This document shows, in pieces, positions 23,053 to 26,842 of a stretch of DNA of 64,000 bases. The notes beneath the pieces are model-generated. The model was not told where the DNA came from, searched no databases, and saw only the letters and a program-made list of their open reading frames with translations. A program made the translations under genes and the position numbers. The stretch comes from Candidatus Eiseniibacteriota bacterium (GTDB taxonomy: Bacteria > Eisenbacteria > RBG-16-71-46 > CAIMUX01): positions 195,964 through 259,963 of the forward strand of contig CAWHYG010000007.1 in the NCBI GenBank assembly GCA_963833505.1, read 5' to 3'. Each line of letters begins with the position of its first letter. The first letter of the stretch is position 1.

Positions 23053-23604
23053 GTGAACCCATCCGGGCCCTTCGTGCTGTCGCTGCACGACCTCGAAGAG
23101 GGGGAGACGCACCTGGAGATGGTCGGAACCGGTTCCGACCTGGAACTCTCGCGGGACGAGCTGGCGCTGTCCCAGCCGGTCGTGCTGCGCGCCAAGGTCT
23201 TCCGGGCCGCCTACCATGTGGAGGTCCAGGGGACCCTCCTGACGACCGCGGATCTGGTCTGTGATCGCTGTCTCGAACCGATCCGGCGCGCGCTCGAGAT
23301 CCCGTTTCGGGTATTCTCCGAGCGGCAGGAGACCCGGGACCACCGGACCAGACAGGAAATGCGTGAAGAGGATCCCGGGATCGTCTACCATGATGGGCAG
23401 TTTGTGGTTCTGACCGACGAAGTGAGACAGGAGCTTCTGGTGGAGAAGCCCTGGCACGTCGTCTGCCGGCCGGACTGCCTGGGGCTCTGCCCGCGCTGCG
23501 GAGGCAACCGCAACGTGAGCGGCTGCACCTGTCCGGATCGCCGGGATCAGGACAGCCCCGACGCGGAACGCATGGACTCGAAACCAAGAATTGAGTCGGA
23601 GTAG
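23053..23604 (+). CDS. yceD: YceD/DUF177 family protein (large-subunit rRNA accumulation factor)
   Basis: ORF 23053..23604, 183 aa; C-terminal CxxC...CxxC (CDRCLEP ... CLGLCPRCG); conserved position upstream of rpmF-plsX-fab operon. Confidence 0.8.
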   Translation: MNPSGPFVLSLHDLEEGETHLEMVGTGSDLELSRDELALSQPVVLRAKVFRAAYHVEVQGTLLTTADLVCDRCLEPIRRALEIPFRVFSERQETRDHRTRQEMREEDPGIVYHDGQFVVLTDEVRQELLVEKPWHVVCRPDCLGLCPRCGGNRNVSGCTCPDRRDQDSPDAERMDSKPRIESE

Positions 23605-25510
23605 GAACCATGGTCACCCATAGCCCCCTCCACAGAACCGGACGAGCGGGACTACCGCATCCGGCTCCCACCTTGGGTCATCACGCCCAGGCGCTGATTG
23701 GGCCAGGGTTGACAGATCCGGGGAATTGGGAGCCATTGAGTCACCAAGCGTTTCCATCGGACGACCGTGAGCCGCGTCGTCTGACTTCGGCGGCGGAGAC
23801 TCCGCCCCCATCGCCAGGACACCGCGTTGCGGAAGGCCGAGAGGGCCGGTCCGTTTCGAGGCACCCCGTAATAGCGGTAGTGCCCGAGCAGGACCGTCCG
23901 CAGGTAGGCTCCTTGGTCCGGGACGGGGTCGTGCAGTCGCCTCCGGAGTTCGCTGCCGATCTCCTTGAGCTTCGCCTGCCACCGCTTGCGCATCGTCTGC
24001 CGCAGCACCGTGAACTTCCCCCGCCGGGTCTTCCCGCAATGTGCGTGAAGCCAAGGAAGTTGAAGGTCGGGGGCTTCCCGTCCCCCCGATCGCGTCGGTT
24101 CTTCTCGGCGAAGCGACCGAACTCGATCAGGCGGGTCTTTTCCGGGTGCAGCTCCAGCCCGAACTTTGCGAAGCGTTCGCGCAGCTCGACCAGGAACCGC
24201 TCGGCCACGTCTCGATGCTGGAACCCAACCACGAAGTCATCGACAAAACGCACCACGACCACGTCGCCGCGCGCTTGCTTCGTTCTCCATCGCTGGATCC
24301 ACAGGTCGAGAGCATAGTGCAGGTAGACGTTGGCCAGGAGGGGACTGATCGACCCGCCCTGAACCGTGCCCACCCTCCCGGCGATGCGCTTCCCCTCCTC
24401 CAGCACGCCGGCCTTGAGCCACTTCAGGATCAAGCGCACGACCCGCTGGTCCGCGATCCGGTGCTCGATGAATTTCCGCAGCCATCCATGGTCGAGGGTA
24501 TCGAAGAACGACCGGATGTCGGCGTCGAGCACCCAGCTCACCTTCTTCCGTTCGATCCCGACCGTGAGTGCATCCAGCGCTTGATGCGGGCTGCGTCCCG
24601 GTCGGGAACCATAGGAAAATCCGAGGAAGTCGATTTCGTAGATGGCGTTCAACACCTCGACCACCGCACGCTGGACGATCTTGTCCTCCAGCGTCGGAAC
24701 TCCGAGCGGCCGCTGCCGCCCGTCGGTCTTGGGGATGTACGCTCGCCGAACCGGCTTCGCCCGATACGCTCCTCGCTTCAGCCTTTCGGAAAGGTCTCGG
24801 AGGTTCTCTTCCAAGTTTTCCCCGTAGTGCTGCCAGGTCTCGCCGTCGATTCCTGCCGCCGCGTTCTTCTTCAGGGCGAAGTAGCCCGCGCGCAGTCGAT
24901 CCACGTCGTAGACATGGTGCAGGAGCGTGGTGAACCGCTGTTTCCTGTCCTTTCTTGCCGCCTGTCGTACCCGCTCCAGTCCGCTGGGCACGCACTCCCG
25001 GCTCTGTGTCCGGTGCGTGTCGGCTTCGAGCGAGTTCCCCTTGGCCCGACCCCTTCCCTCCATCACCTCCGCCACCGGTCGCCCGGCACCGTTCGGCGAC
25101 TTCCCCGGTACTACGGGTCGGTCCGACCTCCCACCTTCGTCCATCATCGGCGTGCGCCTTTCGGCTTCCCGATGCGGTCTGGGCATACCCTGCTTCCAGA
25201 CGAGGGCGGGATCTCCCGGTTCCCATGCAAGGTGACTCCGAACGTGCTCAGGGCCTCTGACCGCGCGGGGTCCCTCGGCGTCTCGCCATGGCGACGCCCA
25301 GGGTGTGGCCTTCCGCTAACCTCCACAGCGTCGGCACCCCGAAGTGATTCATGGATTACGCGGCTCAATACCCGGCCCGCCCGTACCCCTGTCAACGCTT
25401 CACTCCCGGCCTCGCGGCCGACAGCGCATGACTCGGGGCCATCGTGGGTGGCTGGCCCTTCGATGTATGACTCTTTCATTCACTTCACCTCGCCGGTTTG
25501 ACCGGCGCAC
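23605..25510 (-). mobile_element. bacterial group II intron (~1.9 kb) in antisense orientation between yceD and rpmF
   Basis: Minus strand starts GTGCGCCGG (GUGYG 5' consensus) at 25510; domain-V-like hairpin GAGCCGGAUGCGG-UAGU-CCCGCUCGUCCGGUUC at 23635..23667 with AGC triad; encodes an RT/maturase ORF; 3' boundary approximate (+/-5 nt). Confidence 0.8.
23652..25186 (-). CDS. group II intron-encoded reverse transcriptase/maturase (apparent -1 frameshift after FLGFTHI, near 24010-24040)
   Basis: ORF 23741..25186 carries RT motifs (AAGIDGETW, RRAYIPKTDGRQRPLGVPTLEDKIVQ, VVRFVDDFVVGF, FLGFTHI); ORF 23652..24008 in another frame carries the maturase/X domain (LRQTMRKRWQAKLKEI ... LLGHYRYYGVP); junction reads attgcgggaagacc where ggaaag would restore the frame. 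Confidence 0.85.
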
Positions 25511-25519
25511 GGAGGCACC

Positions 25520-25699
25520 ATGGCCCTGCCCAAGAGGCGACACTCGAGCGCACGGCGGGACAAGCGCAAGGCGAACTGGAAACTGGCGGCCCCGCCCGCT
25601 TCGAAGTGCTCCAACTGCGGAGCCGTCAAGCGCCCCCATTACGTCTGCCCGCAGTGCGGCTACTATCGGGACGAGGAGTTCGTGGTCGTCGAGAGCTGA
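25520..25699 (+). CDS. rpmF: 50S ribosomal protein L32
   Basis: 59-aa ORF below track cutoff, read directly: MALPKRRHSSARRDKRKANWKLAAPPASKCSNCGAVKRPHYVCPQCGYYRDEEFVVVES; ggagg RBS 5 nt upstream. Confidence 0.85.
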   Translation: MALPKRRHSSARRDKRKANWKLAAPPASKCSNCGAVKRPHYVCPQCGYYRDEEFVVVES

Positions 25700-25765
25700 G
25701 GCGCCGGCCCGTCCGAGCGCAGCTCGAGTCATGCGAAGGCATCTTGAGGCAGACACGAGGCCGTC

Positions 25766-26842
25766 TTGGACCGCTTGGGGCCTGGTGAGGGCGGCTTGAC
25801 CGATCTCGTTCGCCGCAGGCGAGTGGCCGTCGACGCCATGGGGGGAGACACCGGTCCCGCGGTGATCGTGGCCGGAGCCGTTGAGGCCGCGCGCCGCTAC
25901 TTTGACACCACCCAGGTCGTCCTGGTCGGCGACGAAAGCGAGATCCGCCGCCATCTGGACCGGACCGTCGAGGAGGAGCTCGGCGTCGAAGTCGTCCACA
26001 CCAGCCAGACCATCGATATGGGGGAGTCCGCGACCAGCGTCTACCGCCAGCGGCAGGATGCCTCCGTGGTCGTGGCCACCCGGTTGCTCGGAGCCGGGAA
26101 GGTGGACGCCTTGGTTTCCGCGGGCAACACCGGAGCGGTCGTGACCTCGAGCCTGCTCGAGCTCGGGCGGGTCAAAGGGGTGGCGCGTCCGGCCATCGCC
26201 AGCCTGGTGCCGACTCCCACGGGACACACGGTGCTCCTGGACGTGGGCGCGAACTCCGACACCAAGCCGCTCCATCTGTTCCAGTTCGCGATCATGGGAA
26301 GGATCTACGCCCAGTATGTGTTCGACGTGGCCGATCCGCGCGTCGGGCTGCTCAACATCGGCGAGGAGAGCAGCAAGGGCTCGGAAGTGGCCCAGCAGGC
26401 CAACAAGATCCTGGAAGCGAGCCGGGCCAACCTTCACTTCATCGGCAACGTGGAAGGTCGCGACATCCTCCGCGGCACGGCGGACGTGGTCGTCTGCGAC
26501 GGGTTCACCGGCAACGTGATCATCAAGTTCGCGGAGAGCGTGGTCTGGATGGCGGTCGAGTCGGCGCGCCGCGAGCTGGCCAACAATCTGAAGTTCAAGT
26601 TCGGGGCTCTGCTGCTGAAACCGGTGCTGCATCGGTTGCGAAACCGGCTGAATTACGAGGAATATGGGGGGGCGCCGCTGCTCGGTGTGAACGGGGTAGT
26701 CGTGATCGGCCATGGCCGGTCCTCGGCCAAGGCGATCATGAACGCGATCCGCGTGGCTGACAAAGGTGCCCGGGAACGGATCGACCAGAAAATCAGAGAG
26801 GAACTGGCCCGTGAACAGGGAAGCGAAGAGGCAGCTGGTTAG
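25766..26842 (+). CDS. plsX: phosphate acyltransferase PlsX
   Basis: ORF 25766..26842; VAVDAMGGDTGPAVIV ... SAGNTGAVV ... CDGFTGNV motifs; true start may be the GTG at ~25823. Confidence 0.9.
   Translation: MDRLGPGEGGLTDLVRRRRVAVDAMGGDTGPAVIVAGAVEAARRYFDTTQVVLVGDESEIRRHLDRTVEEELGVEVVHTSQTIDMGESATSVYRQRQDASVVVATRLLGAGKVDALVSAGNTGAVVTSSLLELGRVKGVARPAIASLVPTPTGHTVLLDVGANSDTKPLHLFQFAIMGRIYAQYVFDVADPRVGLLNIGEESSKGSEVAQQANKILEASRANLHFIGNVEGRDILRGTADVVVCDGFTGNVIIKFAESVVWMAVESARRELANNLKFKFGALLLKPVLHRLRNRLNYEEYGGAPLLGVNGVVVIGHGRSSAKAIMNAIRVADKGARERIDQKIREELAREQGSEEAAG

What the first reader, a model, noticed from the sequence alone, without database searches (positions are those of the whole stretch)
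23605..25510. Antisense group II intron wedged exactly between the yceD stop codon and the rpmF ribosome-binding site
The minus strand begins GTGCGCCGG (GUGYG 5' consensus) at 25510, ends with a textbook domain-V hairpin (AGC triad) at 23635-23667, and encodes an RT/maturase with RT motifs, a YADD-like VDDF box and a maturase X domain. It fills the entire gap between yceD (stop 23604) and rpmF (RBS ggagg 25511-25515), on the opposite strand of a highly conserved operon. Both flanks carry a similar ~15-nt motif (ggagtaggaaccatggtc vs ggaggcaccatggcc), suggesting insertion at a duplicated or structured site. The RT stop codon sits in the domain-V loop.
Basis: partly seen in the sequence, partly recalled or inferred. 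Interest (0 to 1): 0.7.

Follow-up and report, generated by a model that had tools for sequence, protein, structure and literature searches.

The report
Intron that homes to gene starts
A real but probably crippled mobile group II intron sits backwards just upstream of the ribosome-binding site of rpmF, and its relatives show why: the RNA segments this family uses to choose a target spell "GGAGG" and "AUG", so the family pairs with the opposite DNA strand of gene starts in general.

Summary
The group II intron is real and lies on the minus strand at 23595-25510 (1916 nt). Its 3' end is 10 nt further left, so the last three yceD codons and the TAG stop are intron domain VI. The reverse transcriptase/maturase gene carries one 1-nt deletion at 24039/24038. 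The stop codon inside the domain V loop is a trait of the whole family.

The "repeated flank motif" is not a duplication. The left copy is the intron's own domain VI. The right copy is the rpmF Shine-Dalgarno and ATG, which is the target the intron pairs with: EBS1 GGAGGU with GCCUCC, EBS2 CCAUG with CAUGG, EBS3 A with U.

In 54 non-redundant relatives these pairings covary. 41 have a Shine-Dalgarno-like EBS1, and 37 of those lie 9-16 nt from a start codon on the opposite strand, next to unrelated genes.

Related genomes without the intron have yceD and rpmF 2-42 nt apart, with the same GAGGAGG...ATG junction.

The window copy is an ordinary new member of a known kind. The family's homing to the antisense strand of translation starts was not described in any paper I could search. 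It looks like a new specialised targeting strategy, comparable to IIC introns and terminators.

The parts
23595..25510 (-). Complete group II intron, 1916 nt (5' GUGCG ... GAC 3')
   Evidence: Rfam hits. The 5' and 3' ends are conserved in relatives. It aligns end to end with L163 at 91.4% identity with one gap.
25251..25474 (-). Domain I core, matched by Rfam RF02005 group-II-D1D4-6
   Evidence: 185.6 bits against gathering 49, full-length model match.
25350..25354 (-). EBS2 (5'-CCAUG), pairs with IBS2 CAUGG
   Evidence: It lies just 3' of the conserved GCCGCG(A/U)AAU. Family-wide complementarity to exon -7..-19 is 4.83 against 3.95 +/- 0.13 in permutations, reached by 0 of 500.
25319..25324 (-). 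EBS1 (5'-GGAGGU, intron nt 187-192), pairs with IBS1 GCCUCC
   Evidence: It covaries with exon -1..-6 across 55 non-redundant junctions: MI 0.86-1.35, 87-100% paired.
25258..25258 (-). EBS3 (A, intron nt 253), pairs with the first 3'-exon base (U)
   Evidence: Covaries with 3' exon +1: U-A 35, C-G 8, A-U 5; MI 0.87.
24039..25147 (-). IEP, reverse-transcriptase part (start ATGATG at 25147, RT5 box RFVDDF), up to the frameshift
   Evidence: Pfam RVT_1. 72-90% identity to intact 497-498 aa homologs when repaired.
24038..24039 (-). Site of the 1-nt deletion that breaks the IEP frame (ATC Ile codon reduced to AT)
   Evidence: Pairwise alignment with L163 shows this as the only gap in 1916 nt. The ORFs are split.
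23652..24038 (-). IEP, maturase (X) part and C-terminus ...TQGGSRMR*, in the shifted frame
   Evidence: Matches TIGR04416 positions 272-352. Aligns with homologs to the last residue.
23635..23667 (-). Domain V hairpin (AGC triad, 2-nt bulge); the IEP stop TAG at 23652-23654 is in the loop
   Evidence: RF00029. Consensus fold with compensatory changes. MFE -42.8 kcal/mol, z -3.75 for domains V+VI.
23597..23632 (-). Domain VI: basal GGAG/CUCC helix, bulged branch-point A (complement of T23602), covarying distal stem with GUGA loop.
   Evidence: In the consensus fold of 60 sequences, 14 of 28 pairs have double compensatory changes.
25511..25516 (+). rpmF Shine-Dalgarno GGAGGC, which is IBS1 on the opposite strand
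   Evidence: Direct complementarity to EBS1.
25518..25522 (+). CCATG containing the rpmF start codon (25520-25522), which is IBS2 on the opposite strand
   Evidence: Complementary to EBS2.
25520..25699 (+). rpmF (ribosomal protein L32), 9 nt from the intron 5' end
   Evidence: Pfam Ribosomal_L32p, E 2.1e-23.
23053..23604 (+). yceD (DUF177). Bases 23595-23604 (final base of the gag codon, then tcg gag tag) are intron sequence. IBS3 is A23594.
   Evidence: Pfam YceD. The tail is 11-22 aa longer than in the closest homologs. The exon-joined frame has no stop for 96 codons.

Best explanation
This is a retro-inserted copy of a compact IIB-type group II intron that lacks an endonuclease domain.

Shown: it has all ribozyme hallmarks. 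Its three exon-binding sites are complementary to the DNA that flanks it. EBS1 GGAGGU pairs with the antisense of the rpmF Shine-Dalgarno, EBS2 CCAUG pairs with the antisense of the rpmF ATG, and EBS3 A pairs with the first base on the other side.

Shown by comparison: in this intron family EBS1 usually reads like a Shine-Dalgarno sequence (GGAGG, GGAGA, AGGAG, AAGGAG, in sliding register). In one large subgroup EBS2 carries an invariant AUG. Members lie on the strand opposite to unrelated genes, directly 5' of the genes' ribosome-binding sites.

Inferred: the excised lariat, bound to its reverse transcriptase, reverse-spliced into the antisense strand of the rpmF translation start. It was copied into DNA using a replication-fork primer, as other endonuclease-less introns are. 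The insertion left the SD and ATG attached to rpmF, which presumably is why it is tolerated.

Because the intron is antisense, it cannot be spliced out of the operon mRNA. rpmF, plsX and fabH must therefore be transcribed through 1.9 kb of antisense intron or from an unrecognised promoter.

The copy now carries a 1-nt deletion in the IEP gene. If that deletion is real, the copy could move only with protein supplied by another copy.
For: Ribozyme: Rfam D1 185.6 bits and D5/D6 45.5 bits. The D5/D6 consensus fold has 14 of 28 pairs with compensatory changes. The fold has z -3.75.

Boundaries: the 5' GTGCG and the 3' ...CCTACTCCGAC are conserved in about 60 relatives with unrelated flanks.

Pairings: EBS1/IBS1 MI 0.86-1.35 with 87-100% paired, including lineages retargeted to other sequences (GGGGCUC/GAGCCCC, UUGCACUU/AAGUGCAA). 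EBS2/IBS2 exceeds all 500 permutations. EBS3/IBS3 MI 0.87.

Target class: 41 of 54 junctions are SD-type, and 37 of those 41 have CAT at -20..-8, against 0 of 13 non-SD junctions. 20 of 25 junctions with enough flank start an ATG ORF of at least 60 aa, against 4% of SD-like pentamers in the window (p about 5e-24). Eight such ORFs are real genes of unrelated families, matched from the start of the profile.

Isolate examples: in the B. thailandensis plasmid the intron starts 11 nt from the PGAP-annotated ATG. A Ralstonia megaplasmid shows the same pattern.

Precise insertion: intron-less relatives have yceD-rpmF gaps of 2-42 nt, and L165 reads ...GAGGAGGAATCATGgcc against the window's exon-joined ...GA|GGAGGCACCATGgcc.

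IEP: intact homologs up to 90% identical. The closest relative, P0001 (90% identical), scores 344 bits against the 300-bit TIGR04416 cut-off. No En domain.

Both junctions also occur in separate Logan unitigs.
Against: There are no transcript, splicing or mobility data. In the window copy EBS2-IBS2 is only 5 bp, and the IBS2-IBS1 spacing varies from 0 to 5 nt across the family, which is looser than in classical IIB introns. Part of the enrichment at gene starts could come from purifying selection against insertions inside genes rather than from recognition. The IEP frameshift means this copy may be dead, or the base may be an assembly error. The yceD reading frame is unexplained: the joined exons give no in-frame stop for 96 codons, so the yceD tail must have changed after insertion or the frame call is off. 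No promoter was found that would feed rpmF or the intron. Weak positive GC skew would put the intron in the leading-strand template, unlike RmInt1, but that signal is too weak to use.
Confidence: 0.85

Rival explanations
1. Survivorship only. The family recognises nothing more than a 5-6 nt GGAG-like IBS1. Copies are seen at gene starts because insertions inside coding regions, being antisense and unspliceable, are lethal and lost. The match to CAT is a by-product.
For: IBS1 is short (6 bp). SD-like pentamers are common (800 in the 64-kb window). A few SD-type junctions are not at gene starts (L105, L106, L164). Published work on IIE/IIF introns found EBS2-IBS2 dispensable for splicing (PMC3753933).
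Against: EBS2 complementarity exceeds all 500 permutations. It covaries with the bases around CAT (CGAUG/CAUCG, UAGAUG/CAUCUA, GAUGCC/GGCAUC, CAAUG/CAUUG). AUG is invariant within the EBS2 of one large subgroup. Lineages with a non-SD EBS1 have matching non-CAT EBS2 partners.
Confidence: 0.2
2. One reading: the intron entered a duplicated or structured site, as IIC introns do at terminators or attC hairpins, and the two similar 15-nt motifs are the trace of it.
For: ggagtaggaaccatgg (23596-23613) and ggaggcaccatgg (25511-25523) do resemble each other. One tandem case (L123) shows that the D6 strand can itself serve as a target.
Against: The left motif is the 3' strand of domain VI. It is conserved, or covaries as a helix, in about 60 relatives whatever their flanks. 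Relatives show no flanking duplication. No terminator-like hairpin lies in the 5' exon. The EBS1/2/3 pairings account for the site.
Confidence: 0.03
3. Assembly artefact: an intron from elsewhere in the metagenome was stitched into the yceD-rpmF junction of a metagenome-assembled genome.
For: Short-read unitigs break 25-28 nt inside each intron end, as happens at repeats. The 1-nt deletion could be an error.
Against: Both junctions are present in separately assembled unitigs. The flanks are complementary to this copy's own EBS1, EBS2 and EBS3 (12 bp in all). The closest relative, with a different 3' exon, has a slightly different EBS2 region.
Confidence: 0.04
4. Domesticated regulator: the antisense element is kept because its transcript or DNA controls rpmF or yceD expression.
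For: Any transcript that includes the intron's 5' exon would be complementary to the rpmF SD+AUG. The element supplies the yceD stop codon.
Against: The closest intron-less relatives have the plain junction. Relatives sit beside unrelated genes. The element is 91% identical to a copy at a different site. There is no conserved promoter.
Confidence: 0.03

Closest known systems
Group IIC (class C) introns that insert after intrinsic terminators or at attC sites
   Same: Endonuclease-less. Spread to a generic, genome-wide sequence signal outside coding regions rather than to one homing site. The attC lineage also lies opposite to the neighbouring genes (PMC4424553, PMC7923331).
   Different: IIC introns have a 3-4 nt EBS1, no EBS2, and read a DNA hairpin. 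This family has a 6-nt EBS1, an EBS2 and an EBS3, and it reads a linear motif (antisense SD + start codon) by base pairing.
[quoted passage not shown] 2007 as summarised in PMC12584367)
   Same: Associated with translation signals of unrelated or housekeeping genes. One member replaces the host stop codon, much as this copy supplies the yceD stop.
   Different: Those introns are in the sense orientation and are spliced from the mRNA. They carry a 300-700 nt insertion at the base of domain I. Here the orientation is antisense, domain I is compact (EBS1 at nt 187) and there is no En domain. From my own knowledge, not tested here, those introns belong to the CL1 class with an En domain.
RmInt1 (class D / IIB3) and other endonuclease-less IIB-like introns (classes E, F, Toro's g1-g5)
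   Same: RT-maturase without a D/En region. IIB-type EBS1/2/3. Priming presumably at replication forks (PMC8914252, PMC3552965).
   Different: RmInt1 homes to one long site in an insertion sequence. The published IIF example Ge.ur.I1 has IBS1 AUUCG. I found no antisense-SD targeting reported for any of them. Assignment of this family to one of these ORF classes was not achieved.
Related introns on isolate replicons: B. thailandensis, Ralstonia and Variovorax (IEP 57-61% identical), and the very common Klebsiella IncF plasmid intron (domain I 71% nt identity)
   Same: Same ribozyme type and IEP architecture. The B. thailandensis and Ralstonia pseudosolanacearum copies show the same antisense SD+ATG junction.
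   Different: The Klebsiella, Cupriavidus and B. anthina copies pair with a LexA (SOS) box upstream of umuD, imuA or another gene instead of with an SD.

Membership tests
Group II intron (ribozyme + IEP) | 5' end GUGYG and a domain I recognisable by covariance model | tested here: met
   GUGCG at 25510-25506. RF02005 scores 185.6 bits against gathering 49.
Group II intron (ribozyme + IEP) | Domain V: 34-nt hairpin with AGC triad and 2-nt bulge | tested here: met
   23635-23667. RF00029 45.5 bits. Helix pairs with compensatory changes.
Group II intron (ribozyme + IEP) | Domain VI with a bulged branch-point A 7-8 nt from a 3' end that reads AY | tested here: met
   The A opposite T23602 is 7 nt from the 3' end ...GAC at 23595.
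Group II intron (ribozyme + IEP) | EBS1-IBS1 (and EBS2-IBS2) pairing with the 5' exon | tested here: met
   6 bp + 5 bp in the window. Covariation across 54-55 junctions.
Group II intron (ribozyme + IEP) | Intron-encoded RT/maturase in domain IV | tested here: met
   RVT_1. The closest relative, P0001, passes TIGR04416 at 344 bits against a 300-bit cut-off. The window copy needs one frameshift repair.
Group II intron (ribozyme + IEP) | Self-splicing with lariat formation, and retromobility | not testable with these tools
   No RNA data. Mobility is inferred only from related copies at many different sites.
IIB structural type | 3' exon read by a single EBS3 base remote from EBS1 (not the delta position next to EBS1), with EBS2 present | tested here: met
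   Intron nt 253 covaries with 3' exon +1 (MI 0.87, 92% paired). The position next to EBS1 does not.
IIC / class C (terminator or attC targeting) | Very short EBS1, no EBS2, and a stem-loop (terminator or attC) just upstream of the insertion point | tested here: not met
   6-nt EBS1 and an EBS2. No terminator-like site in 25511-26000. The 5' exons are gene starts.
Specialised IIB1 start/stop-codon lineage | Sense orientation within or next to a start or stop codon, with a 300-700 nt insertion at the base of domain I | tested here: not met
   Antisense to rpmF and yceD. EBS1 lies at intron nt 187 and the whole pre-ORF ribozyme is about 360 nt. Features of that lineage are from PMC12584367.
Zimmerly/Toro ORF classes (A, D, E, F, g1-g5) | Phylogenetic placement of the RT and X domains with curated class members | not tested
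   No reference class sequences were available. Only shown: no D/En region, RF(A/V/C)DD in place of YADD, ORF running into domain V. An apparent link to 'B.th.I3' was dropped because B.th. stands for Bacillus thuringiensis.

The most novel reading that the evidence does not exclude
The window copy belongs to a large lineage of compact, endonuclease-less IIB-type group II introns. The lineage is widespread in soil and sediment metagenomes and is present on Burkholderia and Ralstonia replicons, and I found no description of its targeting behaviour. Its exon-binding sites imitate the two signals of a bacterial translation start (EBS1 resembles Shine-Dalgarno, EBS2 contains AUG). The intron therefore reverse-splices into the antisense strand of essentially any gene start, landing just 5' of the ribosome-binding site and leaving it intact. 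Sister sublineages have retuned the same two sites to another conserved regulatory motif, the LexA box. This would be a second 'generic signal' targeting strategy for group II introns, after IIC introns and terminators, and it works purely by RNA-DNA base pairing.
Probability: 0.5. Interest if true: 0.75.

Novelty: new variant of a known kind. Interest (0 to 1): 0.62.

Why it matters
Bacterial group II introns are thought to survive by choosing harmless sites. Until now the only well-documented strategy based on a generic signal has been the terminator and attC targeting of IIC introns. A lineage that reads the antisense of Shine-Dalgarno plus start codon would have thousands of potential sites in every genome. 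It would always spare the coding sequence and the ribosome-binding site, and it would place a 1.9-kb antisense element between genes and their promoters or upstream cistrons. That has consequences for operon expression, for antisense transcription over translation starts, and for annotation: here yceD borrows its stop codon from the intron, and shadow ORFs appear. The pairing rules are simple and covary cleanly, so they could be tested directly in plasmid mobility assays using the Burkholderia or Ralstonia copies, and they might be useful for targetron design. For this window alone, the result is a corrected annotation: an antisense intron with a probably defective IEP splits the yceD-rpmF-plsX operon.

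Tried and rejected
(1) Exact-protein look-ups of L32, YceD and Ndk to find an intron-less allele of the same organism. These gave only unitigs from the same sample that break inside the intron; Ndk with its long N-terminus was not on record.

(2) A genome-contig scan with PlsX. The best relative was only 51% identical (Eisenbacteria), too distant for a junction comparison. It did give 63 yceD-rpmF gaps with a median of about 25 nt. The two large gaps (L058, L068) are not introns.

(3) Ten literature searches and several full-text look-ups for antisense, Shine-Dalgarno, RBS or start-codon targeting by group II introns. Nothing was found. Simon et al. 2008 (the class F description) was requested twice and is not held. 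Michel et al. 2007 (Biochimie) is a subscription-journal paper that I did not read. So prior description cannot be excluded.

(4) ORF-class assignment. I first thought that 'B.th.I3' (Toro's variety g2) was the Burkholderia thailandensis hit, but the abbreviation means Bacillus thuringiensis. The class is left unassigned.

(5) A promoter and terminator scan for an outward promoter feeding rpmF, or a block inside the antisense intron. The result was no better than shuffles.

(6) GC skew as a guide to the replication strand. It is weakly positive on the + strand and too weak to use.

(7) A plus-strand gene filling the gap. The 486-aa and 235-aa plus-strand ORFs have no Pfam match.

(8) DNA for P0002 (88% identical IEP) could not be fetched.
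Full report
**What is there**

The minus strand of 23595-25510 is a complete group II intron. Rfam's domain I-IV model RF02005 (group-II-D1D4-6) matches 25251-25474(-) over its full length at 185.6 bits (gathering score 49). The domain V/VI model RF00029 matches 23595-23669(-) at 45.5 bits (gathering 40). These are the only gathering-level RNA hits in the 64-kb window (re-run at relaxed threshold).

The sequence begins GUGCGCCGG at 25510. Domain V (23635-23667) has the AGC triad and the 2-nt bulge. Domain VI (23597-23632) has a GGAG/CUCC basal helix, a bulged A 7 nt from the end, a distal stem and a GUGA loop. The intron ends ...GAC at 23595. The 75-nt domain V/VI segment folds exactly this way (-42.8 kcal/mol, z = -3.75). 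In an alignment of 60 family members the consensus fold has 28 pairs, and 14 of them show compensatory double changes.

**Boundaries**

The 3' end is not. The string ...CCTACTCCGAC is conserved at the 3' end of about 60 relatives whose downstream flanks are unrelated. The first 3'-exon base covaries with intron nt 253. The intron therefore includes 23595-23604, which is the final base of yceD's gag codon followed by tcg, gag and the TAG stop. The T of that TAG is the partner of the branch-point adenosine.

Its CCATGG is one arm of the covarying distal stem.

**The protein**

The ORF on the minus strand is split. An RT part runs from ATGATG at 25147 (Pfam RVT_1, E 2.9e-35). A maturase part (23652-24038) is in another frame and matches the C-terminal third of TIGR04416. 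Joined with one inserted base, the protein is 72-90% identical to intact 497-498 aa proteins from metagenomes and keeps every residue that is invariant among 16 of them.

Against the closest relative's DNA (L163) the whole intron is 91.4% identical, with a single gap. That gap is a missing C in an ATC codon at 24039/24038 and is not in a homopolymer. The copy is therefore a very recent pseudogene for its protein, or it carries an assembly error.

The following are traits of the whole family:
- No DNA-binding or endonuclease region.
- RF(A/V/C)DD where most IEPs have YADD.
- An ORF that runs into domain V, so that ...GSRMR* is encoded by the 5' strand and loop of domain V.

**The insertion site**

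The host genes are sucD-ndk-yceD | intron | rpmF-plsX-fabH on the plus strand. YceD homologs place the host near Candidatus Eisenbacteria, and the identical protein lies on a 2.45-Mb NCBI contig.

Relatives with 56-68% identical YceD have the same gene order without the intron. yceD and rpmF are 42 nt apart in L165 and 2 nt apart in L166-168. In 63 more distant genomes the median gap is about 25 nt. L165 reads ...GAGGAGGAATCATGgccctt, and the window's joined exons read ...GA|GGAGGCACCATGgccctg. The insertion was therefore precise, inside GA|GGAGG, and it left the Shine-Dalgarno and ATG on rpmF. Both junctions also occur in separately assembled unitigs of run ERR11594402.

One detail stays unexplained. 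The window's YceD is 11-22 aa longer than its closest homologs. With the intron removed, its frame would run 96 codons across rpmF. A TGA abutting the SD is in a different frame. So the tail must have been remodelled after the intron supplied a nearby stop, or there is an indel in the tail.

**Why this site**

I collected 80 related loci from metagenomes and located their junctions.

- EBS1. Intron nt 187-192, the loop of a hairpin in domain I, pair with the last six exon bases. Mutual information is 0.86-1.35 bits per position, and 87-100% of sequences are paired over 55 non-redundant junctions. Many changes are fully compensatory, including lineages retargeted to quite different sequences (GGGGCUC/GAGCCCC, UUGCACUU/AAGUGCAA, AGCAGG/CCUGCU).
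- EBS2. A segment just 3' of the conserved GCCGCG(A/U)AAU pairs with exon positions about -7 to -16. The mean best run is 4.83, against 3.95 +/- 0.13 when introns and exons are re-paired at random, and none of 500 permutations reaches it.
- EBS3. Intron nt 253 pairs with the first 3'-exon base (U-A 35, C-G 8, A-U 5).

This is the IIB arrangement. In the window the three pairings are GGAGGU/GCCUCC, CCAUG/CAUGG and A/U.

**The family pattern**

Of 54 non-redundant junctions, 41 have a Shine-Dalgarno-like EBS1 in sliding register (IBS1 CTCCTT x10, TCCTCC x6, GTCTCC x5, CCTCCT x4, GCCTCC x3 and others). 37 of those 41 have CAT at -20..-8, against 0 of the 13 junctions whose EBS1 is something else.

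Read on the other strand, the flank is GGAG, a spacer, then an ATG that opens a long ORF. This holds for 20 of 25 junctions with at least 280 nt of flank, against 4% of SD-like pentamers in the window (binomial p about 5e-24; one of the 20, L123, is the nested-intron case). Eight such ORFs are bona fide genes of unrelated families, matched from the start of the Pfam profile: transaldolase, short-chain dehydrogenase, YceI, isochorismatase, a glycoside hydrolase, an amidohydrolase, an alpha/beta hydrolase and a metal-resistance protein.

In one large subgroup the EBS2 segment carries an invariant AUG whose neighbours covary with the bases around the target CAT (CGAUG/CAUCG, UAGAUG/CAUCUA, GAUGCC/GGCAUC, CAUGCCC/GGGCAUG).

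The same junction is seen in isolates. On a B. thailandensis plasmid the intron starts 11 nt from the PGAP-annotated ATG of an enoyl-CoA hydratase/phosphate acetyltransferase gene on the other strand (...CATGACATTTCTCC|GTGCGCC). The same holds on a Ralstonia pseudosolanacearum megaplasmid (CATTG/CAAUG). The closest relative of the window copy (L163) has the same IBS1 but a different 3' exon, so it sits at a different site.

**Mechanism**

Shown:
- The ribozyme anatomy.
- The three exon-binding pairings at this site, and their covariation in the family.
- The precise junction relative to intron-less relatives.
- The association of the family with the antisense strand of translation starts of unrelated genes.

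Inferred from established knowledge of group II introns (PMC4424553, PMC12584367):
- A lariat-IEP particle reverse-spliced into the strand complementary to the rpmF translation start.
- Because the IEP lacks an endonuclease, cDNA synthesis was primed at a replication fork.
- The insertion is tolerated because the SD, the start codon and the coding sequence stay intact.

Because the intron is antisense, it cannot be removed from the operon transcript. How rpmF, plsX and fabH are transcribed across it is unknown, and no promoter or terminator signal stands out.

**Rival readings**

- Pure survivorship, with only GGAG recognised and other insertions purged, explains part of the enrichment. It does not explain the EBS2 covariation.
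- The duplicated or structured-site idea is contradicted by the conservation of domain VI and by the absence of duplications in relatives.
- A chimeric assembly is unlikely, given the copy-specific complementarity of the flanks and the two unitig junctions.
- A domesticated regulator is unsupported.

**Comparison with the literature**

Known specialised lineages are the IIC introns (terminators and attC sites; short EBS1, no EBS2, hairpin recognition) and a IIB1 lineage inserted in the sense orientation at start or stop codons, which has a large domain I insertion. This family fails defining features of both.

Surveys of insertion contexts that I could read (PMC7306698, PMC8919778, PMC3552965, PMC3753933, PMC4424553) do not mention antisense Shine-Dalgarno or start-codon targeting. 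Full-text searches combining EBS1 or IBS1 with Shine-Dalgarno returned nothing relevant. Simon et al. 2008 was requested and is not held. I did not read Michel et al. 2007. The ORF class of the family was not assigned.

**Verdict**

As a window onto its family, it exposes what appears to be a new variant of group II intron targeting. Interest is 0.62.

Noticed in passing
L177 2930-3140 (K. pneumoniae IncF plasmid NZ_CP023943); L174 about 1100-1140; L175 about 1100-1140; L171 about 2115-2140: A sister sublineage sits beside LexA (SOS) boxes rather than ribosome-binding sites. Its domain I is 71% identical to the window intron, and matches occur on about 3,700 Klebsiella plasmid records. In Klebsiella the 5' exon ends ...CTGTATATATATACAGT|GTGCGCC, 40 nt upstream of umuD on the other strand, and the EBS1 (ACUGU) and EBS2 (UGUAUAU) loops are complementary to the box. 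The same holds upstream of imuA on a B. anthina plasmid and upstream of a gene on a C. oxalaticus plasmid.
   Followed up: partly
L123 about 480-570; L110 1-20: Nested and tandem copies. In L123 a second intron is inserted 2 nt before the 3' end of another, and its EBS1 CGGAGU pairs with the domain VI strand ACUCCG. In L110 an intron starts directly after ...CTACTCCGAC. The SD-like 3' strand of domain VI can evidently serve as a target.
   Followed up: partly
L088 2117, L095 287, L115 1350, L118 509, L096 518, L099 410: Family members whose 5' end is not GUGCG but GAAAGCG, GAGAGCG, GAUAGCG or GAGCG. The EBS1-IBS1 pairing fixes the junction, so these look like genuine variant 5' ends, some with two extra nucleotides.
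   Followed up: no
window 23554-23604: The YceD C-terminal tail is 11-22 aa longer than in its closest homologs and ends on a stop codon inside the intron. The T of that TAG lies opposite the branch-point A. With the intron removed the frame stays open for 96 codons across rpmF, and a TGA at 23592-23594 abuts the SD in another frame.
   Followed up: partly
L105 720-742; L106 475-497: The 5' exons are tandem repeats of the IBS1 motif (ctcc ctttctcc ctttctcc| and cctcctggtctcctggtctcc|) and are not gene starts. These may be repeated-target or alternative-splice-site situations like the one published for Ge.ur.I1.
   Followed up: no
window 24041-25501 (+) and 23610-24317 (+): Long plus-strand ORFs (486 and 235 aa) run antisense to the IEP gene. 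The second begins at an ATG preceded by GGAG, both inside domain VI. Neither has a Pfam match, so they look like GC-rich shadow ORFs that an annotator could miscall.
   Followed up: yes
L024 3639-3700: A RAGATH-18 RNA (Rfam RF03064, 70 bits) lies in the 265-nt yceD-rpmF spacer of a Selenomonadaceae genome.
   Followed up: no
L001 1-25; L002 2191-2218: Short-read unitigs of run ERR11594402 stop 25 and 28 nt inside the two intron ends. This suggests further copies of the intron with other flanks in that sample, which could supply IEP in trans.
   Followed up: no
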